64,000 bases of DNA from a virus, in IMG/VR virus record IMGVR_UViG_3300048834_000455, positions 25,906-89,905 of that record. One strand, 5' to 3'. The notes beneath the pieces were generated by a model. That model was not told where the DNA came from and searched no databases. It saw nothing but the letters and a program-made list of their open reading frames with translations. Both the position numbers and the translations under genes were made by a program. This document shows, piece after piece, positions 37,961-62,243 of the stretch. The stretch's first letter is position 1. Every line of letters begins with the position of its first letter.

Positions 37961-37995
37961 CTCTGGAGACTAAGATTCAATAAGGAGACCAGAGA

Positions 37996-38736: not shown

Positions 38737-38777
38737 AAGTTGAGCAAGCTGAGACTGAGACTCAGAATTGATGGTCA

Positions 38778-38852
38778 GCCCTGAAAAGTGTTGGTTCGAA
38801 TCCAACTCCCCGCGCCACTTGCGGGGATGGCGCAACTGGTAGACGCAAGGGT
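38778..38852 (+). ncRNA. permuted tRNA-like domain 1
   Basis: T arm GTTGG-TTCGAAT-CCAAC (38790-38806); TCCCCGC(38807-13) G CCA CTT GCGGGGA(38821-27), a perfect 7-bp acceptor stem; TG; D arm GCGC-AACTGGTAG-ACGC; AGGGT(38848-52) pairs with GCCCT(38778-82) as an open anticodon-like stem. Confidence 0.85.
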
Positions 38853-38896
38853 CCACAGATTCAGGTTCCACTCAAGAAGCTAAACACAACAGCAGT

Positions 38897-39033
38897 CCCT
38901 CGAATCGAACTCGGAACGCCCATATCTCGAAGATGCTGGTTCGACTCCAGCCCCGGCCGCCACCTGGCCGGGTGTTCTAATGGCAAGATGTCGTTATTCA
39001 TGACTGAGCGTTGCGATTAAAAGCCGTCGAGGG
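38897..39033 (+). ncRNA. permuted tRNA-like domain 2 with its closing stem
   Basis: T arm GCTGG-TTCGACT-CCAGC (38935-51); CCCGGCC(38952-58) G CCA CCT GGCCGGG(38966-72); TG; D arm TCT-AATGGCA-AGA; TCG(38991-93)/CGA(38928-30); outer stem CCCTCGA(38897-903)/TCGAGGG(39027-33). Confidence 0.85.
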
Positions 39034-39054
39034 GTAAGCCCTGCGAACAAACTC

Positions 39055-39091
39055 GAGCCCTCAGTCGGCATAGCTGGGGGCTCTCTTATTT
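39055..39091 (+). terminator. intrinsic terminator-like hairpin ending the ncRNA unit
   Basis: GAGCCCTCAG(39055-64)/CTGGGGGCTC(39074-83) 10-bp stem with one G-U pair, followed by TCTTATTT. Confidence 0.65.
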
Positions 39092-44871: not shown

Positions 44872-45453
44872 TTGAGCAAAGACCCTGCGGCCAAGCCCAA
44901 GGCCAAGTTGAAGCCGAAGAAGGTGAAGGCCAAGACGACAGCCCACCGCAAGGGGCTTAACGACAAGCAGCGCGCCTTCATCAAGCTTTGGCCTAAGAGC
45001 TTCAACTATGACGAGCTTGTCCCGGTGCTGGGCGTCTCCAAAGACACTCTGAAGCACTGGAATTCCCGCGCGATCAACCCCGAGATCAAGGAGTTGATCG
45101 ACGCTGAGATCGTCAAGCACTTCGATAAGGTCAAGGGCCGCTTGGAGATTCTCTTCGCCGAGAATAAAGAGCGCATCTTCGGCGAGCTTTGGGACATCTA
45201 CGAGAAAGCCAAGGGCGAGCAGGACTGGAAAAACTGCCTCCGTGCGCTGGAGAAGCTGACCAAGATTGTCGGCATGGACGTTGTTCGCACCGAGATTACG
45301 GGAGCAAAGGGCGAGCCACTCGCTATTCGGGTTGACGATTCCGAGGTTAGCTTCGAAGGCTGGGAGCCCGAGCGCATAAGCGCGTACATCTCCATGCGAC
45401 GCGAAGCGAACGCCCTGGCCAAGGCTCAAGCCGATGGCAAAAGGACTCCGTAG
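44872..45453 (+). CDS. probable terminase small subunit
   Basis: Directly upstream of and overlapping TerL; basic N-terminus, LNDKQRAF, HTH-like LGVSKDTLKHW, and ALEKL.K..G...TEITGA.GEP. Confidence 0.65.
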   Translation: MSKDPAAKPKAKLKPKKVKAKTTAHRKGLNDKQRAFIKLWPKSFNYDELVPVLGVSKDTLKHWNSRAINPEIKELIDAEIVKHFDKVKGRLEILFAENKERIFGELWDIYEKAKGEQDWKNCLRALEKLTKIVGMDVVRTEITGAKGEPLAIRVDDSEVSFEGWEPERISAYISMRREANALAKAQADGKRTP

Positions 45454-47089
45454 CGCACCACCGGCCGCATTCCCCGAGGTAGGCGGCACGCCGCTGCCCC
45501 AGTGGAAGCGAGACGAGTTTGTTTGCCCGGATGTTCCCCTCGAGGAACTGAAGGCCGACGCCGACCTCCGTCAAGCCGTCCGCGAGCTGTGTCGCAGTTC
45601 GTTCTATCGGTTCATCAAGATTTCATGGCGCGCGCTCTTTCCTCGGCGCAAGTTTATCGACGGCCATCACATTCAGTTCGTCTGCGACATACTGCAGGCA
45701 CTGACCGAGGGGAAGTTTCACCGGGCCATCATCAACATACCGCCCCGCCACATGAAGAGCACCATCGTGTGCATTCTCTGGGTGGCTTGGCGGTTCGGCC
45801 CGCGCGATGAGCGAATCGAGTTTCTGTTCGCGACCCTCGGCCAGAAGCTCTCTCAGCGTGACAGCCGCAAGTGCCGCGATCTGCTCAAGAGCGAGTGGTT
45901 TCACCTGCTCTGGCCCGATGTCAAGTTCCGACCCGACCAGGACCAGAAGATTGACTGGGAGCTAGAGGACGGCGGCAAGCGCGACACCACCTCGAAGGGC
46001 TCACAGGTCACCGGTAGCGGTGGCGATGTCATCGGCGTTGACGACCTTCACGACCTAAAGGACAGCATTCACGCGCTGGCCGAAGCCGTCGACTGGTACA
46101 CCGGCACTCTTTCTTCCCGCGAGAACTTCGGCGAGATGCCTCCGCAAGAGGTCATGATTATGCAGCGGGTTGGGGTTGGCGACGTTGCCGGCCACGTACT
46201 CGCTACCGAGACCATCTGGCAGCCCGGGTGCGACGACCCTTACGCCTGGGTCCACGTCTCGCTGCCGTGCGAGTACGACCCTGCTCATCACTGCATCACG
46301 CCGATTGGCGGGGACTGGCGCAAAGATAACGGCGAGTTTCTCTGGCCCGAGGTTTACGGCGCTACCGGGGTTCGCGGGCCGACGTGGATACCCACGAAGA
46401 AGCGACGGCTCGGGCCGAAGCGGTGGGCCGCGCAGTACCAGCAGCAGCCTGTTCCCGAGGGCGGCAAAGAGTTCGAAGCCGAGTGGCTGAGCAACCGGTT
46501 CCCGAGGCTTCCCGTTCAGCTCATCGAGCGCTGGATTCTCTCGGTTGACTGCGCGTTCAAGGATGGGCCTGCGGTTGACAACGTGAGCATTCAGCTCCTT
46601 GGCAAGGTCGGGGCTTGGTACTACGTGGTCGACGAGATCTCGGAAACCATGTCCTGGATGAAGACCAAGGAGACGTTCGCGGAACGCTTCTACTACTGGA
46701 CGGGTCTCGGGATTCCGATCATGACCTGCCTCATTGAAGAGGCGGCCAACGGTCACGCGCTGATCGACGAGTTCAAGAAGATCCTGCCCGGCGTCATTCC
46801 ATTCAAGACGAAGGGCGACAGCAAGGTTACGAGGGCGCGCGGTACCACGGGCATTTGGCACGCCGGCCAGGTGTGGCTCCCGGCCCCCGACGCCGTTTTG
46901 GTCACCGCGGATAACCGGGTGATAGCGCTGAGCACCAGTTGGGTCAGCGCCTATGTGCGGCAGTTCCTCAAGTTTCCAGACCCGCGCGAGCACGACGACT
47001 CGGTGGACGCGACCACGCAGGCGATTTTGTTCCTCGAGCATCGCATCGAGGAGGAAGAGGAGCTGCTGCCTCCTCCGATGGTGGGATAA
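45434..47089 (+). CDS. terL: terminase large subunit
   Basis: INIPPRHMKST (Walker A variant), VTGSGGDVIGVDDLH, IMQR, AQYQQQP, LSVDCAFKD, IEEAANGH, HDDSVDATTQA. Confidence 0.93.
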   Translation: MAKGLRSAPPAAFPEVGGTPLPQWKRDEFVCPDVPLEELKADADLRQAVRELCRSSFYRFIKISWRALFPRRKFIDGHHIQFVCDILQALTEGKFHRAIINIPPRHMKSTIVCILWVAWRFGPRDERIEFLFATLGQKLSQRDSRKCRDLLKSEWFHLLWPDVKFRPDQDQKIDWELEDGGKRDTTSKGSQVTGSGGDVIGVDDLHDLKDSIHALAEAVDWYTGTLSSRENFGEMPPQEVMIMQRVGVGDVAGHVLATETIWQPGCDDPYAWVHVSLPCEYDPAHHCITPIGGDWRKDNGEFLWPEVYGATGVRGPTWIPTKKRRLGPKRWAAQYQQQPVPEGGKEFEAEWLSNRFPRLPVQLIERWILSVDCAFKDGPAVDNVSIQLLGKVGAWYYVVDEISETMSWMKTKETFAERFYYWTGLGIPIMTCLIEEAANGHALIDEFKKILPGVIPFKTKGDSKVTRARGTTGIWHAGQVWLPAPDAVLVTADNRVIALSTSWVSAYVRQFLKFPDPREHDDSVDATTQAILFLEHRIEEEEELLPPPMVG

Positions 47090-47120: not shown

Positions 47121-49292
47121 TTGGCCTTTCTAGGCAAAGCACGTACATCACTGGCGAGAATTATTGCGCCCACGTCCGTGACCGAGACGGAAACCAAAAG
47201 GCCACTAACTAGAGCCGACCAGCTCCCCATCTACGTGGATGGGGTTCCTTACTCACACTCCACCGAGATGTCTCTCTCCGAGACCATCGCGAAGGTCAAG
47301 CGCTCACCGGTCACTCTCGGCTGCATCAACGCCTACGTTCGGCGCATCCAGCAACTCACGTTTCGCATCCAGCGCTGGAACCCGGAGAGCCGGCGCTACG
47401 AGTTCATCAACGAGGATCACCCCGTCGAAGAGCGCTGGGACCAGCCCGCCAAGTGGTGCTCTCAGAAGCAGATGCTCAGCGCTACGTGCTTCAGCATGAT
47501 GGGCACGGGCAACTGGCTCGCGACGTTCATCAACAGTGACCGCAAAGACAAGGGTCTGCTTCGCGCGCTGGAGCTGAGCCCGCTTGACCCCGACTTCGTG
47601 GACCCGATCCCAGACGTGCTCGACGTAATCAGCGGCTACTCCCTGCGTCAGGGCGACCCGCGCTCGTCGACGGTTCATCTTCTGTGCAGCCTTGACGGTG
47701 GTCGCTTTCTCTCGGCGACTCCGGGTAGAGGCAAGTTCATCCCGCTAGACCGGATGATCCACGCCAAGTTTTCGACCAACAAGAACCCGTGGTGGGGCCT
47801 GTCGCCGATCGAGGCCGCCGCTCTTGCTATCGACACCGGGACCGTGGCGCAAGCCTGGAACCGCTCCATGGTCGGCAACCGGCTCGAAGAGGGTGGCGTT
47901 CTCGAGACCGAACAAGCGCTGACCCGCGACGAGATTGACGAGGCCAAGCGCAGAATTGCCGCTCAGATAGGCGGCTCAAACGCCGGCTCGCCTATCATCC
48001 TGACCCGTGGCCTGACGTGGAAGAGCACCAACCGTGCTCCCCGCGAGATGGACTACGTGGGCACCGATAAGCGCACCGACTGGAAGATTTGCGCGGCTCT
48101 CGGAGTTCCGCCCGTGATCCTCGGGCAGATGGACGACGCCACGCTCAATAACGCCGAGTTTCAGAAGCGCGACTTCTGGGTGGACAGCGTGCTGCCGTTC
48201 ATGGAGCTGATCCTTGAGTCCGTCAACCACTCGTGGGTGTGGCCGGGATGGGGTCGCGAGGTTCGCCTCTGGTACGATACCAGCAACGTTCTCGCTCTGC
48301 AGGAGAAGCGCCAGGAGAAGGTCGAGGCCTTTGGTCTCCTCCACGACCGCGGCTATCCCGCCAACGCTCTGAATGCGTGGCTCGAGCTTGGGCTTCCCGA
48401 CCTTCCGCCCGAGATTGGCGACAAAAGCTTCATCAAGAGCGGCCTGACCGAATTCGTTGACCAGACCCGGGTCGAGTACGCCGAGGGCGAGATTGTCGAT
48501 GACGAGCCGCCGATGCTGGAAGAGGGTGATGACCCGGAGAAGACCGCCAAGGCCTTCCTGTCCGCGTCTGAGGAGAGAGACGCCTACTGGTTCGCCTTCG
48601 AGGGCCAGCGCGAACGGTGGTACGGCAAGGTCGAGAAGCGCGTGGCCAAGCTCATCGGCGACGACCTCGAAGCAGCCGCCGCTGTTGCCGATAGAGGTCT
48701 GTCCGCGATGGAGAATGCCATCGAGCAACGTGCTGGACTGTGGCGCAAAGAGCTTGAGGGAACGTGGGACCAGATAGCCCAAGAGTTCGGCAAGCGCACT
48801 CACGACGGCCTTGTCAAAGCTGCTCACGGTGGTCAGGAGTTCAAAGCCTGGGACTGGGGCAGAAGCGCTCGCGAGTACATCCGGGAGCGAGTGCGCGACA
48901 GAGTCTCTGCCATTGTCGAGACCACAAAGGGATGGGTTGGCCGGCGCGTTCGCGAGGCCAACATGCCAGACGACGGCGGAGACGCAGGGCAGAACATCCG
49001 CGATCAGGCTCCCGAGTACTCCAAGACCCGTGGCGCCACTATCGGCCAGACCGAGGTCCTCGGTGCCTCTGGATACGGTAGCAATCTGGGCGCCAACAGG
49101 TCTGGTGCCGTCAAGAACAAGATTTGGCTGACCTCGCGCGACGACCGAGTGCGTGACAGCCACCGGACCCTAGAGGGTCAGAAAAGACCGCTCGATCAGC
49201 CGTACAGCAATGGGCTTATGTTTCCTGGAGATCCTACGGGTCCCCCATCCGAGACAATAAAGTGCCGCTGCGTCGAGCTCTATGAGGTGTGA
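47121..49292 (+). CDS. HK97-type portal protein fused to a C-terminal MuF (head morphogenesis) domain
   Basis: Portal motifs WGLSPIEAA, G..NAG...IL..GLTW, ICAALGVPP.ILG; C-terminal IGQTE, KIWLTSRDDRVRDSH..L.GQ...LMFPGDP...ETIKCRC (MuF). Confidence 0.85.
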   Translation: MAFLGKARTSLARIIAPTSVTETETKRPLTRADQLPIYVDGVPYSHSTEMSLSETIAKVKRSPVTLGCINAYVRRIQQLTFRIQRWNPESRRYEFINEDHPVEERWDQPAKWCSQKQMLSATCFSMMGTGNWLATFINSDRKDKGLLRALELSPLDPDFVDPIPDVLDVISGYSLRQGDPRSSTVHLLCSLDGGRFLSATPGRGKFIPLDRMIHAKFSTNKNPWWGLSPIEAAALAIDTGTVAQAWNRSMVGNRLEEGGVLETEQALTRDEIDEAKRRIAAQIGGSNAGSPIILTRGLTWKSTNRAPREMDYVGTDKRTDWKICAALGVPPVILGQMDDATLNNAEFQKRDFWVDSVLPFMELILESVNHSWVWPGWGREVRLWYDTSNVLALQEKRQEKVEAFGLLHDRGYPANALNAWLELGLPDLPPEIGDKSFIKSGLTEFVDQTRVEYAEGEIVDDEPPMLEEGDDPEKTAKAFLSASEERDAYWFAFEGQRERWYGKVEKRVAKLIGDDLEAAAAVADRGLSAMENAIEQRAGLWRKELEGTWDQIAQEFGKRTHDGLVKAAHGGQEFKAWDWGRSAREYIRERVRDRVSAIVETTKGWVGRRVREANMPDDGGDAGQNIRDQAPEYSKTRGATIGQTEVLGASGYGSNLGANRSGAVKNKIWLTSRDDRVRDSHRTLEGQKRPLDQPYSNGLMFPGDPTGPPSETIKCRCVELYEV

Positions 49293-50089
49293 TGATGGGT
49301 AGTCCCTTTCTCCGCGAACGTAAGTCGCTATTCAAAGATCTGGGACTCCAACGTCCCAACCGAGAGGCCCGCACCGTCGCCGGCTACGCGGCCATGTGGA
49401 CGGTCGACCAGATTGGCGACCGAATCATAAGGGGCGCTTTCGAAAAGACCATCCGCGAACGGGGACCAGCGAGTCCCCGTTGTCGTATCAGGTTCGGACT
49501 GAATCACCCTGGAATGACTCACAACGGAGTCGTTATCGGTGTTCTCTCCAAGCTCTACGAGGACGAGATTGGCCTCTTCTACGAGGGCATTCTGGACCGC
49601 ACCACCCAGGGCGAAGATGCTCTGATTCGGCTTGAGAGCGGAAGTCTCGACGGCTCAAGCTTCGCCTACGACATCATGGATTGGGCCAAGGGCGAGGGCG
49701 GCGCCGACGGCGACCGCCACCTCAAGGAACTCAAGTGCTATGAGCTTGGGCCTGTCGACTTCGCTTGCAACGAAGACACGTTCTTCACTGCCCTGAAGTC
49801 ACACGCATTTTTCAAAGAGTTTGACCCGTCTTTACTCGCTTCGTTTAGCGAAGAGATGAAGGCCGGTCGTATGTTCAGCGCTGCAAATCTACGCAAAATC
49901 AAAGCAGCGCATGAATGCCTCGCGGACCTACTGAAGATGGCCGGAGAGATCGAGGCGGATACTGCGCCGCCCGAGCCTCAACCACCAGACGATGTGAAGG
50001 CTCTAGCAGGCACCAGTGAAGGGACCGCCCTCCTCGAAGAGATGCGGTCCCTTTCGCTTTTGCTGAAAGGGAACATCAATGAGTGCTAA
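49292..50089 (+). CDS. HK97-family prohead protease
   Basis: GYAA...DQIGDRIIRGAF, NH, IG, EDEIGL, G.LDGSSFAY, YELGPVDFACN. Confidence 0.88.
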   Translation: MMGSPFLRERKSLFKDLGLQRPNREARTVAGYAAMWTVDQIGDRIIRGAFEKTIRERGPASPRCRIRFGLNHPGMTHNGVVIGVLSKLYEDEIGLFYEGILDRTTQGEDALIRLESGSLDGSSFAYDIMDWAKGEGGADGDRHLKELKCYELGPVDFACNEDTFFTALKSHAFFKEFDPSLLASFSEEMKAGRMFSAANLRKIKAAHECLADLLKMAGEIEADTAPPEPQPPDDVKALAGTSEGTALLEEMRSLSLLLKGNINEC

Positions 50090-51407
50090 CGCCATCATGA
50101 CCGCCGAAGAGGCGAAGCAGATGAAGGAAGTCATCTCCGGGGTCTCGGATCAGGTCAAGGCCTTCCAGGACACCAACCAAAAGCTCCACGGCTTGCTCGA
50201 GAAGCAGCGCGAGGAGATCAAGGCCACTCGCGAGACCAGCGAGGAAACCAAAGACGCCATCGCCCAGGCTACCAAGACCTACGATGCGCAACTCGCCGAC
50301 CTTCGTGGTAACAGCGATGAGTTCATCAAGAAGTTCGAAGCGTCTTACGACGAGCTGAAGAAGCAGATCGACGAGTTCGAACTTAAGCTCAAAAAGGGCG
50401 GGGTCGGCCTGAGCCTGGTTAATGGCCAGGGCCGCGACTTCAAGTCCATCGCCCAGGACGATGAGAGGTTCTGGGGCTGGAAAGCCAACGGTTCGGCGGC
50501 CAGTCCTCAACTGAGGGTCGGCTCCTTCTGGGGCGGTAAGGCGACCAACGTTCTCGGTCACGCTGACGTAGAGAACGTCATCTCAACCGCTCGCCCACAG
50601 AGCATCTTCTCTCTGCCGGTGCTCCGCTCCGAGCATCTGCGCGACCACATGACCGTCATCAAGACCGATGCGATGGCGATCAACTACATCATGGAGAAGG
50701 AACTGACCCTCGGAGCTGCTACCGTGGCCGCCGAAGGCACCAAGCCGCGCACCACCATCGAGTTCGAGGATGTCACCGAGAACATGAAGGTCATCGCGCA
50801 CGGTATGGTGGTGACCCGCCAGCAGATTCTGCAGCTCGGCGCGCTCATGGACTTCTGTGAGAACCGCCTCCGCACCGGTATCCGCCACGTCGAAGACGTG
50901 CAGATCGTCAAAGGTGACGGCACCGGTTCCAACTACCGTGGCCTGATGAACCGCGTCGGCGTGAAGACGTACAACCGCCATCACACGGGAGACAGCAAGC
51001 TCGACACCCTGCGTCGCGCACAGACCCAGCTTCGCCTCGACGAGTTGCAGCCGGACCTGTACCTGCTGAACCCCGAGGACTGGGAAGACATCGAGCTTCA
51101 GAAGGGGACCGATGACCACTATGTGTGGGCAGCCGTCACCACTGTTCAGGGGCCGATGCTCTGGAAGCTCCCCGTATTCGAGACCACGGCTATCGACGCC
51201 GGAGACTTCCTCACGGGAGCCTTCGCCTACGGTGCGATGATCTACGACCGCGAGGAAGCAACAGTCCAGGTCTTCGAGCAGCACGCCTCGCTGGCCGAGA
51301 CCAACCAGGCTTACGTTCGCGCCGAGCAGTTCTCCATGCTCGTCGTGCCGCTGCCTGGTGCGTTCCTGAAGGGTGAATTCCCGCAGGTCGAAGGCTCCGG
51401 CTCGTAA
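50079..51407 (+). CDS. major capsid protein (HK97 fold with delta domain)
   Basis: N-terminal coiled coil; VAAEGTKP, EDVQIVKGDGTG..YRGL, LNPEDW..IEL.K, LWKLPV, VRAE. Confidence 0.92.
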   Translation: MSANAIMTAEEAKQMKEVISGVSDQVKAFQDTNQKLHGLLEKQREEIKATRETSEETKDAIAQATKTYDAQLADLRGNSDEFIKKFEASYDELKKQIDEFELKLKKGGVGLSLVNGQGRDFKSIAQDDERFWGWKANGSAASPQLRVGSFWGGKATNVLGHADVENVISTARPQSIFSLPVLRSEHLRDHMTVIKTDAMAINYIMEKELTLGAATVAAEGTKPRTTIEFEDVTENMKVIAHGMVVTRQQILQLGALMDFCENRLRTGIRHVEDVQIVKGDGTGSNYRGLMNRVGVKTYNRHHTGDSKLDTLRRAQTQLRLDELQPDLYLLNPEDWEDIELQKGTDDHYVWAAVTTVQGPMLWKLPVFETTAIDAGDFLTGAFAYGAMIYDREEATVQVFEQHASLAETNQAYVRAEQFSMLVVPLPGAFLKGEFPQVEGSGS

Positions 51408-51408
51408 T

Positions 51409-52422
51409 ATGCTGGGGGAGACTCTCTCTGGGGGTCTCCCCCGCATCGGAGCCTACGCTACCGAGTACTACTACATCGACCACCTGGTCTCTATCTGGCT
51501 CGCACTGCCAGAGGAGGCCAGGGGGTCCTGGTGGGTGACCGAGAAAGCCGCCTTCCGTCTCAACGACTACGGGGTGCCGACCGAGTTCGCGCAGGTCTTC
51601 GCTGACCGCGACCGCCTGAAAGGTGCCCTTGCTCGCGACAAAGGCAAAGACCCCATCCTGACCGCCTCGTTCGCGAACTGGCGCGACGTGACCAACGCAG
51701 GGCGCCCCAACCCGTACCTGCCCCACGGTCAAGGCGGGCCAGGAAACGGCAACGACAACTGGCTACGCAACGCACGCAAGCTCGACCTCATGCTGTGCCC
51801 TACGCCCTACGCTACCACGGGCTTTGAAACTCTCTCGACAGCAGTCATCCACGGCCAACCGAAGACCGACCGATGGGTGGGCCACAAGCCGAAGAACGAG
51901 AACCCTGTCGTTGCCATCTCCTTTCGCTGGAGAGAGACAGCGAGCGCCCTTGAGCACTACCGCCCGCATCTGCTCCAATTCGTGGAAGAGGCGCAGGCCT
52001 ATGGGTGGGAGGTGCTTGGCCACGGCCACCCTCTCGCGTTCGAGAAGCGATTCCGTCAGGTTTGGAAGAAGCTCGGAGTTCGTCGAACGGCCGACTTCGA
52101 GAAGGTGCTCAACGAGGCCGACGTCTACGTCGCCGACTGCAGTAGCAGCTCCTTCGAGTTCGCGGCTACTGACCGCCCCGTCGTATTCCTCGACGCCCCT
52201 TGCTACAAGGGATGCAACTTCGCCCCGCGCTTCACTCACGACCGCGCAGGCCTCACCTGTCGCGACCCTCGACAGCTTGCGAGCACCGTCGCTCTAGCCC
52301 TCGCCGACCCCGATCACGTTGCCGCCGCCCGAGAGGATGTTTGCGCCGAGCTTTTCGGCCCTCGGGACGGCCAATCTTCGCAAAGAGCAGCGAGTGCTCT
52401 CCTGGAGTTTTATGGAGCTTGA
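51409..52422 (+). CDS. TagF/TagB-like CDP-polyol phosphotransferase (GT-B fold), copy 1
   Basis: PHG, GQPKTD, GHGHP, ADVYVADCSSSSFEFAATDRPVVFLD and DGQSSQRAA match CDP-glycerol glycerophosphotransferase family patterns (G.PR.D, HP, D.SS..FEF...RP). Confidence 0.72.
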   Translation: MLGETLSGGLPRIGAYATEYYYIDHLVSIWLALPEEARGSWWVTEKAAFRLNDYGVPTEFAQVFADRDRLKGALARDKGKDPILTASFANWRDVTNAGRPNPYLPHGQGGPGNGNDNWLRNARKLDLMLCPTPYATTGFETLSTAVIHGQPKTDRWVGHKPKNENPVVAISFRWRETASALEHYRPHLLQFVEEAQAYGWEVLGHGHPLAFEKRFRQVWKKLGVRRTADFEKVLNEADVYVADCSSSSFEFAATDRPVVFLDAPCYKGCNFAPRFTHDRAGLTCRDPRQLASTVALALADPDHVAAAREDVCAELFGPRDGQSSQRAASALLEFYGA

Positions 52423-53935
52423 GCTAGACATTCTGGCCACGGAACCGCACTTCCGCGACCATCTCCGCCCTGTTCACGAAGCGCTACTAGCAGCGGGCGT
52501 TAAGGCTTCGTGGCATGAGAGCACGGACACGCTCACGCAGCGTAAAGCCACAGGGCTTGCCGCCGCTTATGGGGACCTCGAGAAACTTCGCAAGACCGGC
52601 CGGCAGGTCATCTTCGCCGAGCACGGTGCCGGACAGAGCTACGCGGGGTCGAACCTTTCCCACCACACGAGCTACAGCGGCGGAGGCCACCGACACGGCG
52701 TCATCGCCTTCCTGACCCCGGGCCAGTATTCGACCAAGCGCAACCGCGAGATCCACGCCTGGACGCCCTGCTACGAGGTAGGTTGCCCCAAGCTGGACGC
52801 CTGGGCTGGATTCACCCTGGAGAAGTACCAGAAGCCCCTGGTGGTCATCTCCTGGCACTGGGACTGCATGGTGACCCACGAGACCCGCAGCGCCTTCTAC
52901 GAGTACCGCCAGGCCGTTGTCGAGGTGTCCAAGGGCGCAGAGTTTGACCTCGCCGTCCACTCCCACCCGAGAATCGCTAAGCAGGTCAAGGCGTGGGCTG
53001 AGAGCGTCGGTATCGAGTGGATCGAGACCTTTGACGAGGTGCTGAAGCGCGCGAACGTTTATGCCGTCGATAACAGCTCGACGCTCTTCGAGTTCGCGGC
53101 CACTGGAAGGCCTGTCGCGGTGCTCAACTCCCGCCACTACCGCCGCCACGTGGACCACGGCTTGCGCTTCTGGCGAGAGGCTGGCATCGGTGTCAACTGC
53201 GACAAGCCGGCCGACCTCCACAGGTGCCTGCTGACCGCCTTGTCCGACCCCTTGGAGTATCGCACCGCCCGTGAGGCCAGTGTCCGTAGAGTTTACGGCG
53301 CGCCACTCGGTCAGGCCACGAGCCTGGCAGTCGCCGCCATCATCGAGATCATCAGCGAGGAGAGAGTGATTGTGAGCCAACATAGAGTTAGAGCCAGATC
53401 GAGCGCCATCGGCTATGCCGGGGCCGTCAGCAAGGGGTGGGTCATCGACCTCTACCCCAGTCACGTTGTCGTCACCGACAATCAGGGGCGAGAGTTTACC
53501 CGAGACTACGCACCAAAGGGCAACTGCGACCCCGAGTACCGCGCTAGAGAAATGGTCGGCACTGGTGTCTATGACCCCATCGCGGTGCCCAGGACCGCCC
53601 CTCTCGGCACCGTCTCGACCCCGCCCAGGCCCTCCGAGAACAAGATTGCGCCGCCTCCGCAGGAACACAAGCAGACGCCTCCTCATGCGGTCGGTGCTGA
53701 TGCGAAGCCGCCCCACCTCGCCGACGAAGCCGAAGACGCTCTAGATGAAGAGGCGCTAGATGAGGCCATCCTTGAGTGCGTGCGCCAGGGCCAAGGCAAG
53801 ACCGCGACCAAGAAAGAGCTTGGCGCGACAGAGGCTTTCACGCAGAATCAAGTCGTCGAGGCCTGGAATCGACTTCAGGAGAACGGTGACATCGTCGAGG
53901 GAGACAAGCCCGGCACCTACAAGGTCGCGGAGTAA
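52412..53935 (+). CDS. TagF/TagB-like CDP-polyol phosphotransferase (GT-B fold), copy 2, with a ~190-aa C-terminal extension
   Basis: EHGAGQSY, GCPKLD, HSHP, AVDNSSTLFEFAATGRPVAVLN; paralogous to the preceding gene. Confidence 0.72.
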   Translation: MELELDILATEPHFRDHLRPVHEALLAAGVKASWHESTDTLTQRKATGLAAAYGDLEKLRKTGRQVIFAEHGAGQSYAGSNLSHHTSYSGGGHRHGVIAFLTPGQYSTKRNREIHAWTPCYEVGCPKLDAWAGFTLEKYQKPLVVISWHWDCMVTHETRSAFYEYRQAVVEVSKGAEFDLAVHSHPRIAKQVKAWAESVGIEWIETFDEVLKRANVYAVDNSSTLFEFAATGRPVAVLNSRHYRRHVDHGLRFWREAGIGVNCDKPADLHRCLLTALSDPLEYRTAREASVRRVYGAPLGQATSLAVAAIIEIISEERVIVSQHRVRARSSAIGYAGAVSKGWVIDLYPSHVVVTDNQGREFTRDYAPKGNCDPEYRAREMVGTGVYDPIAVPRTAPLGTVSTPPRPSENKIAPPPQEHKQTPPHAVGADAKPPHLADEAEDALDEEALDEAILECVRQGQGKTATKKELGATEAFTQNQVVEAWNRLQENGDIVEGDKPGTYKVAE

Positions 53936-53938: not shown

Positions 53939-54268
53939 TTGGGCGCCATCTCCGACCGCTCAGGCGTTGACCTTGACGCGATCAAGCGCTTCCTCAACAT
54001 CAACGGCACCGCCGAGGATACGGACTTAGAGGAGATGCTGGCCGAGGCCAAGGATCTGGCCGACCAGCACTGCGACAACGAGTTCCTCGACGCCGACGAC
54101 GAGGAGGGTCCGATTCCCCCTCGCGTTGAGCGCTGGATCAAGGCCACAGTGGCGCGATTCTACGAGATTCGCGAGAACGGCAAGAAGTCGGAGTCGGTGA
54201 ACGGCGTTGGTGGCGTTGACTACGGCGACGTGGACTACAGCGGCCTGACATGGATACCGTACCTGTGA
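53939..54268 (+). CDS. head-tail connector (HK97 gp6-like)
   Basis: LDAIKRFLNI...ED..LEEML..A, VARFYEIRE; position after the capsid module. Confidence 0.75.
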   Translation: MGAISDRSGVDLDAIKRFLNINGTAEDTDLEEMLAEAKDLADQHCDNEFLDADDEEGPIPPRVERWIKATVARFYEIRENGKKSESVNGVGGVDYGDVDYSGLTWIPYL

Positions 54269-54621
54269 TCGGCGCCTCTGCTTTCCGCGACACCGTGAAG
54301 ATCTTCGAGCGGATGGATTCGCGGGTACCAACCGGGACCCAGCCAACCTTCGCCCTTGTCGACACCTGGAAAGCCTGCGTCATCGAGCTTAACGCTAGGG
54401 CGCGCAAGGCTTACGGCAGCCTGGAGTCCGAGGTCACGCACGAGATCAAGATGCGGGGCACCCCCGAATTCAGGATGGGTCGAACCGAGTTCGAGGTGGG
54501 CGCGCTACGTTTGAAGCCGCTGGCTCCTCCTCGAGTTCCGGGGCATCACCGCAGACCCATCACGCTCATCCCGTGCAAGGACGTGACCCAGAATCGACCA
54601 CCGGAAGGGAGCGGCTCATGA
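54265..54621 (+). CDS. head closure / head-tail adaptor
   Basis: Synteny; W.ACV...VTHEIKMR beta-rich pattern. Confidence 0.6.
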   Translation: MIGASAFRDTVKIFERMDSRVPTGTQPTFALVDTWKACVIELNARARKAYGSLESEVTHEIKMRGTPEFRMGRTEFEVGALRLKPLAPPRVPGHHRRPITLIPCKDVTQNRPPEGSGS

Positions 54622-55465: not shown

Positions 55466-55490
55466 AAGGGCTCCATACGGGGCCCTTTTT
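55466..55490 (+). terminator. terminator-like hairpin before the major tail gene
   Basis: AAGGGCTCC-ATAC-GGGGCCCTT followed by TTT. Confidence 0.6.
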
Positions 55491-55505: not shown

Positions 55506-56171
55506 ATGTCTTTAGCGATTCAGTTGACGGCGCTCACGGAGGATACTCCCGAGCGCCTGGTAGTGCATTCCGGGGTGATGTACCGAAACATCAACATTGC
55601 CGAGCTTGAAGCGGCGGACGGCACTTTCGCCGACGCCATCAACCCGGAGAACACCTGGACCCAGAGCGGCAGAACGTTCACGCCTGAGCCCTTCGGCGCC
55701 ACCAAACAGGGCTTCACTATCGAGACCGGCATGCCCGTCGAGCCCATCCCTGACGTAGATGGCGCCCTCGGACCGACCGTAGGCCTCATGGAGGTGACCA
55801 GCTTCGCGCCGACTTTCGCCGGCAACCTCCTCGAGATGGCCGACTACCGCAAGATGAAAGAGGGCCTGGCTGCTGCCGACGCCTCCTTGACGGCGAGCGG
55901 GCTGTGGAAGATCGAGCCTCGCGCTTACGTCACCAAGAACGACCACCTCGGCAACCTCGCGGTGTTCTGTCAGACCTCGAACCCGAACACCAATCATCTC
56001 TGGCTAGCGGTGCTGTTCAATCCGATTGGCGGCGCCTCTTCGATTCAGCTCACCCGGGGCGCCAACGTGCTGCCGGTGACCTACCGCGGATGTGCAAGCC
56101 TGAGCGCCTCCACTCAGCCACCCATTCGCTTCTACGTTCCTCGCAACGCTGCAGACGGAAGCGGTAGCTAA
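55506..56171 (+). CDS. major tail (tube) protein
   Basis: Strong SD GAGGAGG; TP..L...G..Y.N, FGATKQG, VDG..G pattern; precedes the chaperone and tape measure genes. Confidence 0.75.
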   Translation: MSLAIQLTALTEDTPERLVVHSGVMYRNINIAELEAADGTFADAINPENTWTQSGRTFTPEPFGATKQGFTIETGMPVEPIPDVDGALGPTVGLMEVTSFAPTFAGNLLEMADYRKMKEGLAAADASLTASGLWKIEPRAYVTKNDHLGNLAVFCQTSNPNTNHLWLAVLFNPIGGASSIQLTRGANVLPVTYRGCASLSASTQPPIRFYVPRNAADGSGS

Positions 56172-59900: not shown

Positions 59901-60155
59901 AGCATCGAGACCGGCACAGGCAGGGTCAAGCGGCGCGGAGATGCGGCGGTTACGGCAGCGGCCAACAAGCTCTCTGCCGACGTTGGTGCCCTGCGTGGGG
60001 TGGGCGCTGGCGACAAGCAGGAGCCGCTCAACGACGTGCTCACCATTAACCTTGTCGACGCAAGCGGCACCGTGTTCTCGGACAGCGTTTCGCGTGGATC
60101 TAGCGGCAGCGTGGACATGTCGACCACCTACGAGCTTGGACGGCTTGGCGCATGA
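56943..60155 (+). CDS. tape measure protein (TP901-like)
   Basis: 1070 aa, Ala/Gly-rich and helical; AAYDVAQAG, SDVYFKTIETG.ITFEQ, GVSFEEV.AA.AT.T.QG core motifs. Confidence 0.92.
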   Translation: MALGEVFSLKAVIEVITGGAEQKIDSVEKSGRRLGQTFGSSFKGAATSMLAFVGAASAIQAVGNAVNGAVNATITFEKGARQLNTILKLNEKQLADYTESIRTLGTELDINVSATEAMAAAYDVAQAGFTKAADNALVMETALKTSAAAGVSASLAANQISGTLKAYGLAATDAQRVSDVYFKTIETGIITFEQFEHGLGAANAVAASAGVSFEEVMAAVATATGQGIKASTAFDGIKTSIANLSAPLDSQKKAMAEYGIVIDQNTLRQNGYQQTIIDIVKATGGNSSALRNILGDVTAYQLALSLISNEGKIAADNLRDMNNALGAQEAALVEMRKSTSFQLDQMKAAAEGLGIALVSNFGGPATQAIQTVTAALVEMDKFVKSLSKGEGGLLGALTRGFQNTFPATAQMLSELGDTLLELVGMVQNWFAAFGGPEATAATTAVDFLLSSILKLADILANAIGLAGKLLEGVVVWARDLSTVLGATFAVMGQAWAQVVDGMSGIFENFAYVVESVWKGVIDGILGTIKALPDQFRGVFAGIEKDLEKASDSFKAKAPKAGFVDSVSKIVGAPEFVRENLPQTIADARATNARPAPVKAATPEQAKKAQAAISGLFGGVKDFLTTGKLPVAEKAVAAPGAPAAIPALPPPDPAAATKDIEARADAIKNELSLEKISLAEGAKRYQALFKEAQKAKLSGEDLHKVEQALFDVRQKMFDQSEKAMKATEELRVERTKLVQGETAGLLAALDIEKRERAKAGAESVELEAWYGAQRIAIFKADAEKKAETAKKLVDAQNALADSAAKANQDALVASDKPEEAALAGLEQQKAEMMRGLLEQKDAIIKAGGDKLKAEQDYQAAVLANERSYQAQRLKITKDAAKERNQAETSAKVTILKNEAASSDNPEEARKKNLEAENIERLQQIKGQVEAYRTAGVDQLVIDRYIASEQKKIKAEAEGGKADEKGKGNQSPVQSIQEAFAGMNKLGFSIETGTGRVKRRGDAAVTAAANKLSADVGALRGVGAGDKQEPLNDVLTINLVDASGTVFSDSVSRGSSGSVDMSTTYELGRLGA

Positions 60156-60586
60156 GTGCAGAGTGGAACGCGACCACCATCTCGTTCTGCGGGATAGAGG
60201 TGGGACCGCCGCACATCCCCCGCGAGCTACCGACGCCAGACTATGGCCTTCGCGTGAAGAAGACCTACATGAGCGAAGGCGCGGAATTGCCAGGGCTCTG
60301 CGTCAAGGAACCGCTGGGCGGTCACGACTCCTACGGGACCATCGCCTTCAGGCTGAGCGCTATGAGCAAGGCCAACGTCGACACCTTCCTGACTGCCGCC
60401 TTCGACCTATGGACTCCGCGCACACTGGCGATTTCCGCGCCTGGTGGCATCGTCTCGTGGACGGTGTGCTTCGGCGAGAACGGGTTCACCCATCGTCTGA
60501 TTCCCGGCAGGGGCTACTTCGACACCGAGGCCTGGATATGTGGATTCAAGCTTGAGGTGCTGACCATCGGTCCCGAGGGCTCCTAG
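60152..60586 (+). CDS. putative distal tail / tail tip protein
   Basis: Immediately follows the tape measure gene. Confidence 0.5.
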   Translation: MSAEWNATTISFCGIEVGPPHIPRELPTPDYGLRVKKTYMSEGAELPGLCVKEPLGGHDSYGTIAFRLSAMSKANVDTFLTAAFDLWTPRTLAISAPGGIVSWTVCFGENGFTHRLIPGRGYFDTEAWICGFKLEVLTIGPEGS

Positions 60587-61983
60587 TGTTCATTCCTGAT
60601 AGCACCTACACGGCTGATGATGTCCTGCTGCCGAGAACCACCGTCGAACTCATCATCGACGGCGACGACTTCTCGGACTACTACCTCGGCTACGATCTTG
60701 GCGTCTCCTCGCGCGGTCAGCAGGCGACTGGCACAATCCGCCTCAAAGACCGCGACGGAGCGCTCGCAAACAAGGTCTCGCAGTTCGACCAGAGCTTCGA
60801 CAAATGGCTCTCGCACAACATGACCGACGAGCGCACCATCTCGCTGACGGTGACGCAGGGCGAGAAGGTGACGGACTACCCGGTGCTGCTCCCCGGCGTG
60901 CCGAGCTGGGACAACGACGGGACCCTGAGTTGGGCCGTCACAGACCTCACGCCGCTCTTGAACAAGGACAACCAGAGCGCCACGGATGTCGTCTGGGACG
61001 AGCAGGGTGTTGACGACAACAAGAGCGTGTCCGACATCGTGGCCACGTTAGCGACGATGGCCGGCGTCTCCATCAGCCACACCGCGACCAACTGGGATGT
61101 GCGCACGTGGCGAATGACCGCCGAGAACCTTCTCTCCAAGCTCGACGACCTCTGCCGGCCGACGCAAAGCTATCGCCGATGGGACGGCGATGCCCTCATC
61201 CTGGAAGCCCTGAACGAGGCGCTCTCGCCGGCCTTCCACGCCATCGACCGGTTCCACATCGCGAGCCTCACCGCGACCACCGATGACAGCGGACTCCGCA
61301 CATTCTTCAAGGCTTTCCGTTTGCGGTCACAGGCGAGCGCATTGGCCGAGCCCAGAGAGGGCCGCACGGTAGGGCGCGTGGTCGAGATTACGTTCCCGCC
61401 CTCGGACTTCGTGCGCATCCGCACCAAGCAGGCGTTTGGCGTCATCGGTGAGGGCGTGTTCTACAGCGGCGAAGACGAGGTGAACTCGACCGAGGACCCG
61501 CAAACCGAATTCTACAGCCCCGACGCTGGAGTGACCAAGGCTGACCGCTGGCTCGGCACGTTCACTCCCGACATTGGCCCTGCCGAGTATCAATGGTGGT
61601 GGTGGGTGAGCGCCGAGGGCGGAGTCTACAACGCGGCCGACGTCATGATCGAGGGCTTCGATTTCGAGCAAGCCGTCTCGGTAGCGGAGGCCAAGTTCGG
61701 CCGGCGCCCCGAGTACAGCAACCTCGCCACCGAGCTTATCCGTGAGCCCGAGACCTTCGCGGCAATGATGGCCGCGATCGTCCTGGAGGTGCTCTGGTCC
61801 GTGCGCCGCTTCTCGCTGTCCACCCCGTGGCTACTCCCGCAACGTGAGGGCACGTTTATGAACGTCACCCACGCAAAGCATCGTCTCGCCTCCGTGAAGA
61901 TGCTCGTGAACGGCTGGAGGCACAGCCACTCGTGGGAGAGCGGCTGGAACAACAGTTACGACCTACGGGCGAAGCTCTCGTGA
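60586..61983 (+). CDS. putative tail hub / baseplate protein
   Basis: 465 aa, beta-rich and acidic; synteny. The exact start is uncertain. Confidence 0.55.
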   Translation: MFIPDSTYTADDVLLPRTTVELIIDGDDFSDYYLGYDLGVSSRGQQATGTIRLKDRDGALANKVSQFDQSFDKWLSHNMTDERTISLTVTQGEKVTDYPVLLPGVPSWDNDGTLSWAVTDLTPLLNKDNQSATDVVWDEQGVDDNKSVSDIVATLATMAGVSISHTATNWDVRTWRMTAENLLSKLDDLCRPTQSYRRWDGDALILEALNEALSPAFHAIDRFHIASLTATTDDSGLRTFFKAFRLRSQASALAEPREGRTVGRVVEITFPPSDFVRIRTKQAFGVIGEGVFYSGEDEVNSTEDPQTEFYSPDAGVTKADRWLGTFTPDIGPAEYQWWWWVSAEGGVYNAADVMIEGFDFEQAVSVAEAKFGRRPEYSNLATELIREPETFAAMMAAIVLEVLWSVRRFSLSTPWLLPQREGTFMNVTHAKHRLASVKMLVNGWRHSHSWESGWNNSYDLRAKLS

Positions 61984-62243
61984 ACCTCGGCCAGGCTATC
62001 GGCAAGACCGCGTGGCAGTACCGAGGCAGTGACCGCGCAAAGGTCGTGGGGCCGGCGGGCCGAGGCTATGACATCGAGCTCATGGGCGGCGACGTGGCGC
62101 GCGCTTGCATCTCGCACCTGCCCGACCTCGAGAACGAGCAGTGGGTCACGGTGGTGCAGGTCGGCGAAGGCGCGTGGGAGATCGTGGGCACGGCCAGCAA
62201 GGCGCCCCGCGGCGACTTCGCACCGGAACCCGAGGGTTCGTAG
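61980..62243 (+). CDS. small tail-tip protein (OB-fold-like)
   Basis: GTG at 61980 overlapping the previous stop; short and beta-rich. Confidence 0.5.
   Translation: MNLGQAIGKTAWQYRGSDRAKVVGPAGRGYDIELMGGDVARACISHLPDLENEQWVTVVQVGEGAWEIVGTASKAPRGDFAPEPEGS

What the first reader, a model, noticed from the sequence alone, without database searches (positions are those of the whole stretch)
51409..53935. Tandem TagF-like phosphotransferases inserted between capsid and head-tail connector
Seen: two paralogous GT-B ORFs (G.PK.D, HxHP, D.SS..FEFAAT.RPV) tightly coupled to the capsid gene in the late operon, interrupting the usual capsid-connector adjacency. Known: TagB/TagF enzymes prime and polymerise polyol-phosphate (teichoic acid or capsule) chains from CDP-glycerol or CDP-ribitol. 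Inference: a primer/polymerase pair that builds a teichoic-acid-like or glycan polymer on the virion, a different chemistry from the described sugar-transferase virion glycosylation. Host-surface modification is the alternative, but late-operon placement argues against it.
Basis: partly seen in the sequence, partly recalled or inferred. Interest (0 to 1): 0.8.

Follow-up and report, generated by a model that had tools for sequence, protein, structure and literature searches.

The report
TagF-like enzymes for tagging phage particles
An uncultured phage carries two teichoic-acid-type transferase genes right after its capsid gene, and they most likely decorate the short Gly-Ser tails found on its capsid and tail proteins, a variant of the particle glycosylation known from a few mycobacteriophages.

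Summary
Two paralogous GT-B genes lie between the HK97 capsid gene and the head-tail connector gene: A at 51409-52422 and B at 52412-53935 (28% identity, E 2e-23). Gaps to the flanking genes are 1 and 3 nt, and A overlaps B by 11 nt.

By sequence, their nearest characterised relatives are TagF-like polyol-phosphate transferases (Pfam PF04464, Cps3D, TarL). By fold alone they tie with UDP-GlcNAc 2-epimerases.

The likely target is the virion:
- Five structural proteins here end in (E/D)GS(GS).
- In 80 IMG/VR loci carrying this enzyme family, 89 of 1068 ORFs end in GS, against 17 of 1174 in 78 capsid-matched control loci.
- The tagged proteins are unrelated capsid, tail-tube and connector families.
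- Che8's capsid and tail-tube proteins, reported to be glycosylated at their C termini, also end in GS.

The chemistry and the primer/polymerase split are untested. The donor could be a CDP-polyol or a nucleotide sugar. The record encodes no other glycosyltransferase and no nucleotidyltransferase among the eight families I searched.

I classify it as a new variant of a known kind. This scan already reached similar readings on other genomes (e1-3294610, e1-3412936, and with other tags e1-3992941, e1-5889945). What sets this window apart is a cassette with only TagF-like enzymes.

The parts
50079..51407 (+). HK97-type major capsid protein (442 aa). Its last five residues, EGSGS (codons 51390-51404), form the proposed acceptor tag.
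   Evidence: PF05065 E 4.9e-31. phrog_10 E 2.9e-46. Tail read. The four nearest homologues (39-88% identity) keep the terminal GS while the linker before it varies.
51409..52422 (+). TagF-like transferase A (337 aa), consisting of the GT-B core only. It belongs to a rare subfamily: 28 proteins in the 90%-cluster search.
   Evidence: PF04464 33.3 bits against a cut-off of 22.1. AF2 pLDDT 94.5. VIA-align gives TagF 3l7k_D Z 21.0, rmsd 3.4 over 304 residues, tied with 2-epimerases. Invariant residues H106, H205, H207, D243, E250, R256 and R274 across 27 homologues. Homologue search.
52412..53935 (+). TagF-like transferase B (507 aa). Domains: GT-B core at residues 1-316 (52412-53359), small beta domain at 324-390 (53381-53581), disordered linker at 396-442, and a C-terminal winged-helix-like domain at 446-507 (53747-53932).
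   Evidence: Paralogue of A, E 2e-23. PF04464 only 12.6 bits. Member of the large subfamily, with 444 hits at E<=0.001, most carrying a precomputed PF04464 domain. AF2 pLDDT 87.4. VIA-align gives a 2-epimerase at Z 21.4, TagF 20.6 and TarL 20.5. Atlas structural neighbours of the tail are winged-helix domains at TM 0.30-0.37, which is weak.
53939..54268 (+). Head-tail connector (gp6-like adaptor). It marks the downstream border of the insertion and carries no GS tail.
   Evidence: PF05135 E 3.9e-9. phrog_40 E 1.8e-10.
54250..54621 (+). 123-aa head-closure-like protein ending in EGSGS.
   Evidence: Tail read. Weak phrog_25 'head closure Hc1' match, E 0.0033.
55506..56171 (+). Major tail protein (221 aa) ending in DGSGS.
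   Evidence: phrog_885 major tail protein, E 3.9e-20. Tail read.
60152..60586 (+). 144-aa protein directly after the tape-measure gene, in the distal-tail-protein position, ending in PEGS.
   Evidence: Tail read. No PHROG match. The ORF in the same position ends in GS in L037, L072 and L078 and in Rctr41k_43.
61932..62243 (+). 103-aa ORF ending in PEGS. It is uncertain whether this is a real gene, because it overlaps the end of 60586-61983 and the start of 62105-.
   Evidence: No PHROG match.

Best explanation
A and B are late-expressed, phage-encoded transferases of a large, almost entirely uncultured-phage clade of the TagF-like (PF04464) GT-B superfamily. They most likely act in the infected cell on the phage's own structural proteins. 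The proposed acceptor is the hydroxyl of the serine in a short, flexible C-terminal (E/D)GS(GS) tail carried by the capsid, a head-closure-like protein, the tail tube and the protein after the tape measure. The particle would then leave the cell coated with a non-protein group.

By homology, each enzyme would transfer a phosphate-linked unit (glycerol- or ribitol-phosphate) from a host-made CDP-activated donor, releasing CMP. Conserved histidines (A: H106 and H207; B: H71 and H185) would serve as catalytic residues.

The record contains no other glycosyltransferase among the families searched. I therefore infer that one paralogue starts on the protein and the other adds a second or repeated unit. 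B belongs to the widespread subfamily and carries extra C-terminal domains, so it is the better candidate for the starting step.

What is shown: the gene arrangement, the fold, the sequence affiliation, and the tag-enzyme co-occurrence.
What is inferred: the target residue, the donor, the division of labour, and any polymer.
For: Arrangement. The genes sit in one late transcription unit, with 1-nt and 3-nt gaps, an 11-nt overlap, and no promoter-like site.

Affiliation with TagF-like enzymes:
- A passes Pfam's cut-off for PF04464.
- 54 of 60 family members match PF04464, against 7 for Glyco_trans_1_4 and 5 for Epimerase_2.
- A family profile searched against PDB sequences ranks the TagF-like Cps3D first (E 7.8e-5), then TarL (0.031) and TagF (0.71), with 2-epimerases at 0.87.
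- In those alignments the second His of GHGHP aligns with the His of TagF 'RMHY', TarL 'MHP' and Cps3D 'GHH'. D.SS..E and (R/K)P align as well.

Target:
- 5 of 131 + strand ORFs of the genome end in GS, and all five lie in the structural module. None of 155 - strand ORFs does.
- In 80 IMG/VR loci with this family, GS is the commonest terminal dipeptide: 89 of 1068 ORFs, in 51 of 80 loci. In 78 capsid-matched control loci the figures are 17 of 1174 ORFs and 13 of 78 loci (Fisher p 2.5e-15 and 1.1e-9).
- The 78 distinct GS-ended ORFs fall into several unrelated major-head, major-tail, connector and terminator families.
- All 9 distinct window-like capsids in Tag loci end in Ser, against 14 of 68 controls (p 5e-6).
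- The four nearest capsid homologues keep GS while the linker varies. None of 18 more distant homologues ends in GS.
- In the GenBank-annotated Rctr41k record, the capsid, major tail and post-tape-measure proteins end in EGS, PGS and EGS next to the only homologue found in 50,697 phage records.
- Che8 capsid gp6 and tail tube gp11 end in GS. Mycobacteriophage capsid and tail-tube subunits are reported to carry glycans at their C termini (passages of PMC12619734 and PMC11600133 citing Freeman 2023).

Sufficiency. PF00535, PF00534, PF13692, PF01467, PF12804, PF02348 and PF00483 have no match in the 89.9-kb record.

A double TagF-like unit recurs elsewhere as one fused protein, P0029.
Against: - Fold cannot separate TagF from UDP-GlcNAc 2-epimerases. 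For A, Z is 21.0 against both. For B, the epimerase scores 21.4 and TagF 20.6. Foldseek ranks epimerases first and TagF 28th.
- B is below Pfam's cut-off, and NCBIfam names neither protein.
- A profile that includes B's long tail found nothing in PDB sequences.
- There is no CDP-glycerol or CDP-ribitol synthesis gene in the record, and the host is unknown.
- Only 5 of 42 longer Tag-carrying records hold a cytidylyltransferase-like gene. The three near the Tag gene score higher as rfaE domain II than as TagD, and all are far below the cut-offs.
- The GS tag is not specific to this family. Che8, L109 and L125 have GS-tailed capsids alongside ordinary GT2/GT4, galactosyltransferase or methyltransferase cassettes. 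This would also fit plain sugar transfer.
- 29 of 80 Tag loci show no GS-ended ORF. Many of these loci are short fragments.
- My ORF calls are longest-ORF heuristics, not a gene finder.
- No expression or mass data exist.
Confidence: 0.6

Rival explanations
1. The target is the same (the GS tails of virion proteins), but A and B are true glycosyltransferases. They would use nucleotide sugars, for example UDP- or ADP-activated sugars, and make an O-linked glycan as in Che8. The TagF-like signature would then reflect ancestry only.
For: - The GS tag is served by ordinary GT cassettes in Che8, L109 and L125.
- Family members are often fused to GT2 or GT4 domains: 8 of the 10 long forms scanned.
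- 7 of 60 members also touch Glyco_trans_1_4.
- Neighbouring nucleotidyltransferases look more like heptose-1-P adenylyltransferase than TagD, and an SDR epimerase sits beside one of them.
- There is no CDP-polyol gene in the record.
Against: - The only Pfam family above cut-off is PF04464.
- The best solved-structure sequence matches are all polyol-phosphate transferases: Cps3D, TarL and TagF.
- As far as I recall, every characterised PF04464 member is a phosphotransferase. No call tested this.
- Fusion of a TagF-like domain to GT domains is exactly the architecture of the capsule polymerases 8qoy and 8a0c, which also appear among the fold matches.
Confidence: 0.22
2. A and B modify the host envelope (wall teichoic acid, capsule or LPS) during infection or lysogeny. 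The purpose could be to block superinfection or to help release. The GS tails would be unrelated to them.
For: - TagF-family enzymes normally build envelope polymers.
- Earlier notes on this genome describe it as temperate (unchecked).
- Four bacterial or MAG contigs carry relatives.
Against: - The genes are translationally coupled inside the capsid-connector operon, with no promoter of their own.
- Both are soluble GT-B cores. Neither model shows a membrane segment in its secondary structure.
- The family is rare in genomes (4 relatives among 10 candidate stretches) but frequent in viral contigs (157 relatives).
- The statistical link to GS-tailed virion proteins would be left unexplained.
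Confidence: 0.08
3. A and B take part in hypermodification of the phage DNA. This role has been proposed for the CDP-glycerol glycerophosphotransferase gene of Bacillus phage SP-15.
For: A passage of PMC5977210 proposes such a role for SP-15 gene 151. BFVD lists the SP-15 protein among the fold matches at rank 27.
Against: - The genes lie in the head module, not among replication or nucleotide-metabolism genes.
- tblastn with A and B does not reach SP-15 at E<=0.001.
- This reading does not explain the GS tags.
Confidence: 0.04
4. A and B are UDP-sugar 2-epimerase-like enzymes that supply a precursor, not transferases.
For: 2-epimerases tie for, or take, the top fold scores. 5 of 60 family members and the second half of P0029 touch PF02350.
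Against: - Sequence profiles favour TagF-like enzymes by about four orders of magnitude in E-value.
- 54 of 60 members match PF04464.
- The record would then hold no transferase at all among the families searched.
Confidence: 0.04

Closest known systems
Mycobacteriophage virion glycosylation (Che8, Corndog and other cluster O phages; Freeman et al. 2023, Cell Host Microbe). I could not read the paper (not held). It is known here only through passages of PMC12619734 and PMC11600133.
   Same: [quoted passage not shown]
- Che8 gp6 and gp11 end in GS, as do the window's capsid and tail tube.
- In cluster O phages the transferase genes sit in tandem with a methyltransferase gene (passage of PMC11600133). 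Control locus L109 shows the same layout, with transferase genes after a GS-tailed capsid.
   Different: - The enzymes here are TagF-like (PF04464), not GT2/GT4-type. No GT2 or GT4 family was detected in the record.
- More protein classes are tagged: a head-closure-like protein and the post-tape-measure protein.
- The chemistry may be phosphodiester-linked rather than glycosidic.
- The family is absent from 50,696 of 50,697 GenBank phage records.
TagF / TarL wall-teichoic-acid polymerases and the TagB primase (PF04464)
   Same: - GT-B fold. TagF scores Z 21.0 against A and 20.6 against B; TarL scores 19.3 against A and 20.5 against B.
- Shared HP, D.SS..E and (K/R)P motifs in HMMER alignments.
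- Two paralogues side by side, recalling a primase-polymerase pair (that comparison is from memory).
   Different: - A is only the 337-aa core, without the long N-terminal region of the 729-aa TagF chain (lengths).
- The presumed acceptor is a protein serine, not a lipid-linked or polymer end.
- Sequence similarity is marginal (E 0.016 to 0.7).
- No tagD- or tarIJ-like gene accompanies them.
TagF-like capsule polymerases of Gram-negative pathogens (Cps3D, PDB 8qoy; Bcs3-type multienzyme, PDB 8a0c/8a0m)
   Same: - Best solved-structure sequence match (Cps3D, E 7.8e-5).
- Present among the fold matches.
- Many relatives of A and B are fused to GT2 or GT4 domains, which is the architecture of these multienzymes.
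   Different: - In this window the two TagF-like units stand without any glycosyltransferase domain.
- They are phage late genes.
- The acceptor is presumed to be protein.
Bacillus phage SP-15 gene 151 (CDP-glycerol glycerophosphotransferase, proposed to act in DNA hypermodification; passage of PMC5977210)
   Same: A PF04464-type enzyme encoded by a phage.
   Different: It lies in a base-modification gene cluster rather than the head module. It shows no detectable tblastn similarity to A or B at E<=0.001.

Membership tests
TagF-like polyol-phosphate transferases (Pfam PF04464 Glyphos_transf) | Score above Pfam's gathering cut-off for PF04464 | tested here: met
   Met for A: 33.3 bits against a cut-off of 22.1. 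Not met for B on its own: 12.6 bits. B's subfamily mostly carries PF04464, and 54 of 60 family members match at E<=0.01.
TagF-like polyol-phosphate transferases (Pfam PF04464 Glyphos_transf) | GT-B fold of two Rossmann-like domains, superposable on TagF/TarL | tested here: met
   A: TagF 3l7k_D Z 21.0, rmsd 3.4, 304 residues aligned. B: TagF Z 20.6, TarL Z 20.5. This is not discriminating, because 2-epimerases tie.
TagF-like polyol-phosphate transferases (Pfam PF04464 Glyphos_transf) | Conserved histidine of the C-terminal domain, plus the D.SS..(D/E) and (K/R)P nucleotide-site motifs | tested here: met
   HMMER alignments of family profiles to TarL, Cps3D and TagF align GHGHP, D.SS..E and RP with the corresponding motifs. 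These positions are invariant in 27 A-type sequences and in 40 B-type sequences.
TagF-like polyol-phosphate transferases (Pfam PF04464 Glyphos_transf) | Catalytic histidine of the N-terminal domain (the residue mutated in PDB entries titled TagF H444N and TarL H300N) | tested here: inconclusive
   An invariant His exists (A H106; B H71 in EHGAGQ). However, no printed alignment reaches that part of TagF or TarL, and I had no residue-level superposition.
TagF-like polyol-phosphate transferases (Pfam PF04464 Glyphos_transf) | Use of CDP-glycerol or CDP-ribitol as donor, with release of CMP | not testable with these tools
   The context is ambiguous. There is no cytidylyltransferase in the record. 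Only 5 of 42 related records have a CTP_transf_like gene, and those score best as rfaE domain II.
Phage virion glycosylation system (mycobacteriophage type) | Short C-terminal acceptor tail on both capsid and tail-tube subunits | tested here: met
   The window's capsid ends in EGSGS and its tail tube in DGSGS. Che8 gp6 and gp11 end in GS.
Phage virion glycosylation system (mycobacteriophage type) | Phage-encoded transferase genes co-occurring with the tagged proteins | tested here: met
   Tag-enzyme co-occurrence: 89 of 1068 ORFs against 17 of 1174, and 51 of 80 loci against 13 of 78. The enzyme family differs from the GT2/GT4-type cassettes.
Phage virion glycosylation system (mycobacteriophage type) | Covalent glycan on virion proteins demonstrated by mass spectrometry | not testable with these tools
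   No particle or protein data exist for this metagenomic phage.
UDP-GlcNAc 2-epimerase family (PF02350) | Sequence match to PF02350 | tested here: not met
   Neither A nor B matches at E<=1. Only 5 of 60 family members touch PF02350 at E<=0.01. The PDB profile E-value is 0.87. The fold similarity is real.

The most novel reading that the evidence does not exclude
The two enzymes build a teichoic-acid-like poly(polyol-phosphate) chain directly on the carboxy-terminal serine of capsid and tail proteins. A terminal Ser with its free carboxylate would mimic the hydroxymethyl-plus-anion end of a glycerol-phosphate chain. A wall-polymer polymerase could then be re-used with a protein as its primer. 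The result would be a virus particle clothed in protein-anchored teichoic acid, made by a clade of more than a thousand uncultured-phage enzyme clusters.
Probability: 0.2. Interest if true: 0.85.

Novelty: new variant of a known kind. Interest (0 to 1): 0.62.

Why it matters
Particle glycosylation has been demonstrated only in a few actinobacteriophages. As I recall the abstract of Freeman 2023, it was thought to be rare elsewhere.

This study adds three points:
- The same C-terminal Gly-Ser tag marks unrelated capsid, tail-tube and connector families across many uncultured phages.
- A large phage clade of TagF-like enzymes travels with the tag: 1081 clusters (50% identity) at E<=1e-30.
- This window is a minimal natural case, with two such enzymes and no other detectable glycosyltransferase. 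Whether a teichoic-acid-type phosphotransferase can act on a protein serine therefore becomes directly testable with two proteins and one peptide.

If the chemistry is phosphodiester-linked, it would be a new kind of virion coat. That would have consequences for phage surface charge, adsorption, immune recognition and engineering of display tags.

Tried and rejected
- Fold search as a discriminator. Foldseek and VIA-align confirm GT-B but tie TagF with 2-epimerases, so fold alone settles nothing. BFVD gave only generic glycosyltransferases.
- A PDB profile search with the full-length B alignment (A4) found nothing at E<=1. The domain-only alignment A5 worked.
- PHROGs and NCBIfam have no model for A or B.
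- Donor inference from neighbouring genes. Cytidylyltransferase-like genes are rare (5 of 42 records) and ambiguous between rfaE-like and TagD-like. I draw no conclusion from them.
- Host inference. The terminase's best cultured relatives are only 33% identical and are taxonomically scattered. Deinococcus prophage capsids at 33-34% identity are a weak hint.
- B's C-terminal domains. Only weak winged-helix neighbours turned up (TM 0.30-0.37).
- Terminal 'AA' as a second tag. It is also common in controls (35 of 1174), so I did not treat it as a signal, although 12 of 71 Tag enzymes end that way.
- The literature searches found no paper describing PF04464-type enzymes in phage head modules or Gly-Ser tags. 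This covers only the held library. Freeman 2023 itself and all supplements were out of reach, so the exact modified residue and glycan in Che8 are not verified here.
- I did not run the look-up of sequencing runs or read laying, and I built no RNA models.


Full report
WHAT IS THERE

The window is the right-hand 64 kb of an 89,905-bp IMG/VR virus record, estimated 86% complete. The late operon runs in this order:
- large terminase, 45434-47089
- portal with an added Mu-F-like domain, 47121-49292
- prohead protease, 49289-50089
- HK97-type capsid, 50079-51407
- ORF A, 51409-52422
- ORF B, 52412-53935
- gp6-like connector, 53939-54268

A starts 1 nt after the capsid stop, A and B overlap by 11 nt, and the connector starts 3 nt after B's stop. 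No promoter-like site occurs between 44000 and 57000. The only + strand terminator-like site is at 55466-55487, just before the major tail gene.

A and B are paralogues: 28% identity over 272 residues, E 2e-23.

WHAT THE ENZYMES ARE

Pfam matches. A matches only PF04464 (CDP-glycerol glycerophosphotransferase) in Pfam, at 33.3 bits against a cut-off of 22.1. B reaches 12.6 bits, below the cut-off. PHROGs and NCBIfam have no model for either.

Fold. AlphaFold models are confident: A has pLDDT 94.5 and B 87.4. Both show a GT-B fold. Structure comparison does not discriminate between candidate families:
- For A, TagF 3l7k_D scores Z 21.0 (rmsd 3.4, 304 residues) and ties with non-hydrolysing UDP-GlcNAc 2-epimerases at Z 21.0.
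- For B, an epimerase leads at Z 21.4, with TagF at 20.6 and TarL at 20.5.
- Foldseek ranks epimerases first and TagF 28th.

Sequence. Sequence evidence does discriminate:
- A profile of 60 domain-only family members finds the TagF-like capsule polymerase Cps3D (E 7.8e-5), TarL (0.031) and TagF (0.71) ahead of epimerases (0.87) among PDB sequences.
- 54 of those 60 members match PF04464 individually, against 7 for Glyco_trans_1_4 and 5 for Epimerase_2.
- In the printed alignments, the second histidine of GHGHP and the D.SS..E and RP motifs line up with the corresponding motifs of TarL, Cps3D and TagF.
- An invariant N-terminal-domain histidine (A H106, B H71) is a candidate for the residue mutated in the TagF H444N and TarL H300N entries. 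No alignment I obtained reaches that segment.

Both paralogues keep every invariant position of their subfamilies, so both look catalytically competent.

HOW LARGE AND WHERE THE FAMILY IS

A profile search of 1.84 billion cluster representatives gives 3600 proteins at E<=0.001 and 1081 at E<=1e-30. The A subtype is rare (28 proteins). The B subtype is common (444 hits within the capped candidate set).

Of ten long forms scanned, eight carry GT2 or GT4 domains beside the TagF-like domain. One, P0029, is two TagF-like units fused.

Distribution across collections:
- Only 1 of 50,697 GenBank phage records holds a relative. It is Rctr41k, itself a metagenomic virus.
- IMG/VR holds at least 157 relatives.
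- A pattern scan of one genome per prokaryote species found 4 relatives.

In 71 of the 80 IMG/VR loci kept, my ORF set holds exactly one family member, and in 9 it holds none. The tandem pair of this window is therefore unusual.

THE TARGET: C-TERMINAL GLY-SER TAILS

In the window's record, 5 of 131 + strand ORFs end in GS, and 0 of 155 - strand ORFs do. The GS dipeptide frequency is 0.48%. All five lie in the structural module:
- capsid (EGSGS)
- a head-closure-like protein (EGSGS)
- the major tail protein (DGSGS)
- the protein after the tape measure (PEGS)
- a doubtful 103-aa ORF (PEGS)

In the 80 enzyme-bearing IMG/VR loci, GS is the commonest terminal dipeptide: 89 of 1068 + strand ORFs, in 51 of 80 loci. 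It is not among the 12 commonest on the opposite strand.

The 78 distinct GS-ended ORFs belong to several unrelated families of major head proteins (HK97-type 17, SU10-type 6, phrog_2263 6, T4 gp23-type 1, and others). They also include several tail-tube families, connectors, head-closure proteins and tail terminators. The tail has therefore been acquired many times independently.

As a control I fetched 80 loci by similarity to the window-type capsid. The family HMM detects the enzyme in only two of them, both re-fetches of Tag loci. In the other 78, 17 of 1174 ORFs, in 13 of 78 loci, end in GS. The odds ratios are 6.2 and 8.8, with Fisher p 2.5e-15 and 1.1e-9. ORFs within a locus are not independent, so the locus-level figure is the safer one.

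At the capsid level, all 9 distinct window-like capsids in enzyme-bearing loci end in Ser (5 in GS). Among 68 distinct controls, 14 end in Ser and 7 in GS (p 5e-6 and 0.0036).

Among 22 capsid homologues from the large protein collection, the four nearest (39-88% identity) all end in GS, although the preceding linker differs. None of the other 18 does. Three of those four share their contig length with A or B homologues, which suggests the triad travels together.

In the GenBank annotation of Rctr41k, the capsid-protease fusion, the major tail protein and the protein after the tape measure end in EGS, PGS and EGS. The ORF after the tape measure also ends in GS in L037, L072 and L078.

LINK TO WHAT IS KNOWN

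Che8's major capsid protein gp6 and major tail protein gp11 both end in GS. According to passages in PMC12619734 and PMC11600133, which cite Freeman et al. 2023, mycobacteriophage capsid and tail-tube subunits carry glycans at their C termini, put on by phage glycosyltransferases. I could not read Freeman et al..

Control loci with GS-tailed capsids but no TagF-like gene carry other cassettes directly after the capsid gene:
- L109 has two galactosyltransferase/GT2-like genes and a methyltransferase.
- L125 has a GT4 fusion, an Asn-synthase-like gene and a UDP-glucose dehydrogenase.

The Gly-Ser tail is therefore a general virion-modification tag, and this window belongs to that class of system. 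What differs is the enzyme family.

WHAT IS NOT SETTLED

The donor and the product are unknown.
- The record has no match to PF01467, PF12804, PF02348, PF00483, PF00535, PF00534 or PF13692. It has one sub-threshold 12.4-bit match to PF13641. A and B are thus the only detectable transferases, and the donor must come from the host, which I could not identify.
- Among the 42 longest of the 80 related records, 5 hold a cytidylyltransferase-like gene. By my coordinate conversion, three lie within about 4 kb of the TagF-like gene, and one is directly upstream.
- Those three score higher against heptose-1-phosphate adenylyltransferase (55-74 bits) than against TagD (24-62 bits). All are far below the cut-offs.
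- GT2 or Glyco_trans_1_4 matches above cut-off occur in 10 and 12 of the 42 records. By my count the union is 19.
- Four of the nine records that are at least 90% complete have neither. Two of those four (the records of L037 and L078) show GS-tailed capsid-sized and tail proteins. A TagF-like enzyme as the only detected transferase therefore recurs, which argues that it can act on the tag itself. Only those two GT families and PF01467 were searched in those records.

MECHANISM PROPOSED

During late infection, A and B bind the flexible C-terminal tails of newly made or assembled structural proteins. They transfer a phosphate-linked polyol, or less likely a sugar, to the serine hydroxyl.

B belongs to the widespread subfamily and carries a beta domain and a winged-helix-like domain behind a disordered linker. 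It is my candidate for the protein-directed first step. A, a rare derived paralogue lacking the SY.GG loop of the B type, would extend the chain.

This assignment, and any polymer length, are inference. The fused double-TagF protein P0029 shows that two such units working together is a recurrent solution.

VERDICT

The TagF-like affiliation and the virion target are supported by comparative evidence. The polyol-phosphate polymer and the primer/polymerase roles are untested.
- In print, as far as the held library shows, TagF-like enzymes in phage head modules and the generality of the Gly-Ser tag are not described.
- Within this scan, other agents reached similar readings on other genomes.
- I rate it a new variant of a known kind, with interest 0.62.

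Noticed in passing
L063, L050, L026 and other Tag loci (e.g. L063:2453-3241, 5508-6353, 7279-8022, 7941-9005): 12 of 71 TagF-like ORFs end in 'AA', often as ...VAA. So do several neighbouring cassette enzymes, which recalls ssrA-type degradation tails. However, 'AA' ends are also common in the high-GC controls (35 of 1174), so this may be a composition effect.
   Followed up: partly
L111:5327-6343 and L050:6242-7918: Collagen-triple-helix repeat proteins are encoded just downstream of GS-tailed capsid genes: directly after the capsid gene in L111, and a few genes further on, just upstream of the Tag gene, in L050. They may be head fibres or decoration proteins.
   Followed up: no
L125:6272-9760: After a GS-tailed capsid gene, this locus carries a different cassette: a phosphoribosyltransferase-GT4 fusion, an Asn-synthase-like protein and a UDP-glucose dehydrogenase.
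   Followed up: no
window 53381-53932 (B residues 324-507): B carries a confident small beta domain and a C-terminal winged-helix-like domain behind a roughly 45-residue disordered linker. They could form a substrate-docking module. Only weak structural neighbours were found.
   Followed up: partly
window 47121-49292: The portal protein is fused to a Mu-F-like head-morphogenesis domain at residues 624-718.
   Followed up: no
window 9622-9768 (+): There is a sub-threshold match (12.4 bits against a cut-off of 27) to Glyco_tranf_2_3 inside a 217-codon open frame. It is probably noise.
   Followed up: no
P0302, P0304: Prophage capsids of Deinococcus actinosclerus and D. gobiensis are among the more distant homologues of the window's capsid (33-34% identity). 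This is a weak hint about the host lineage.
   Followed up: no
window 37926-39091 and elsewhere in the record: Earlier unchecked notes on this genome mention a permuted tRNA-like ncRNA, satellite-like control modules, an orphan dndB and a dispersed bipartite motif. ARAGORN found no tRNA or tmRNA in the window.
   Followed up: no
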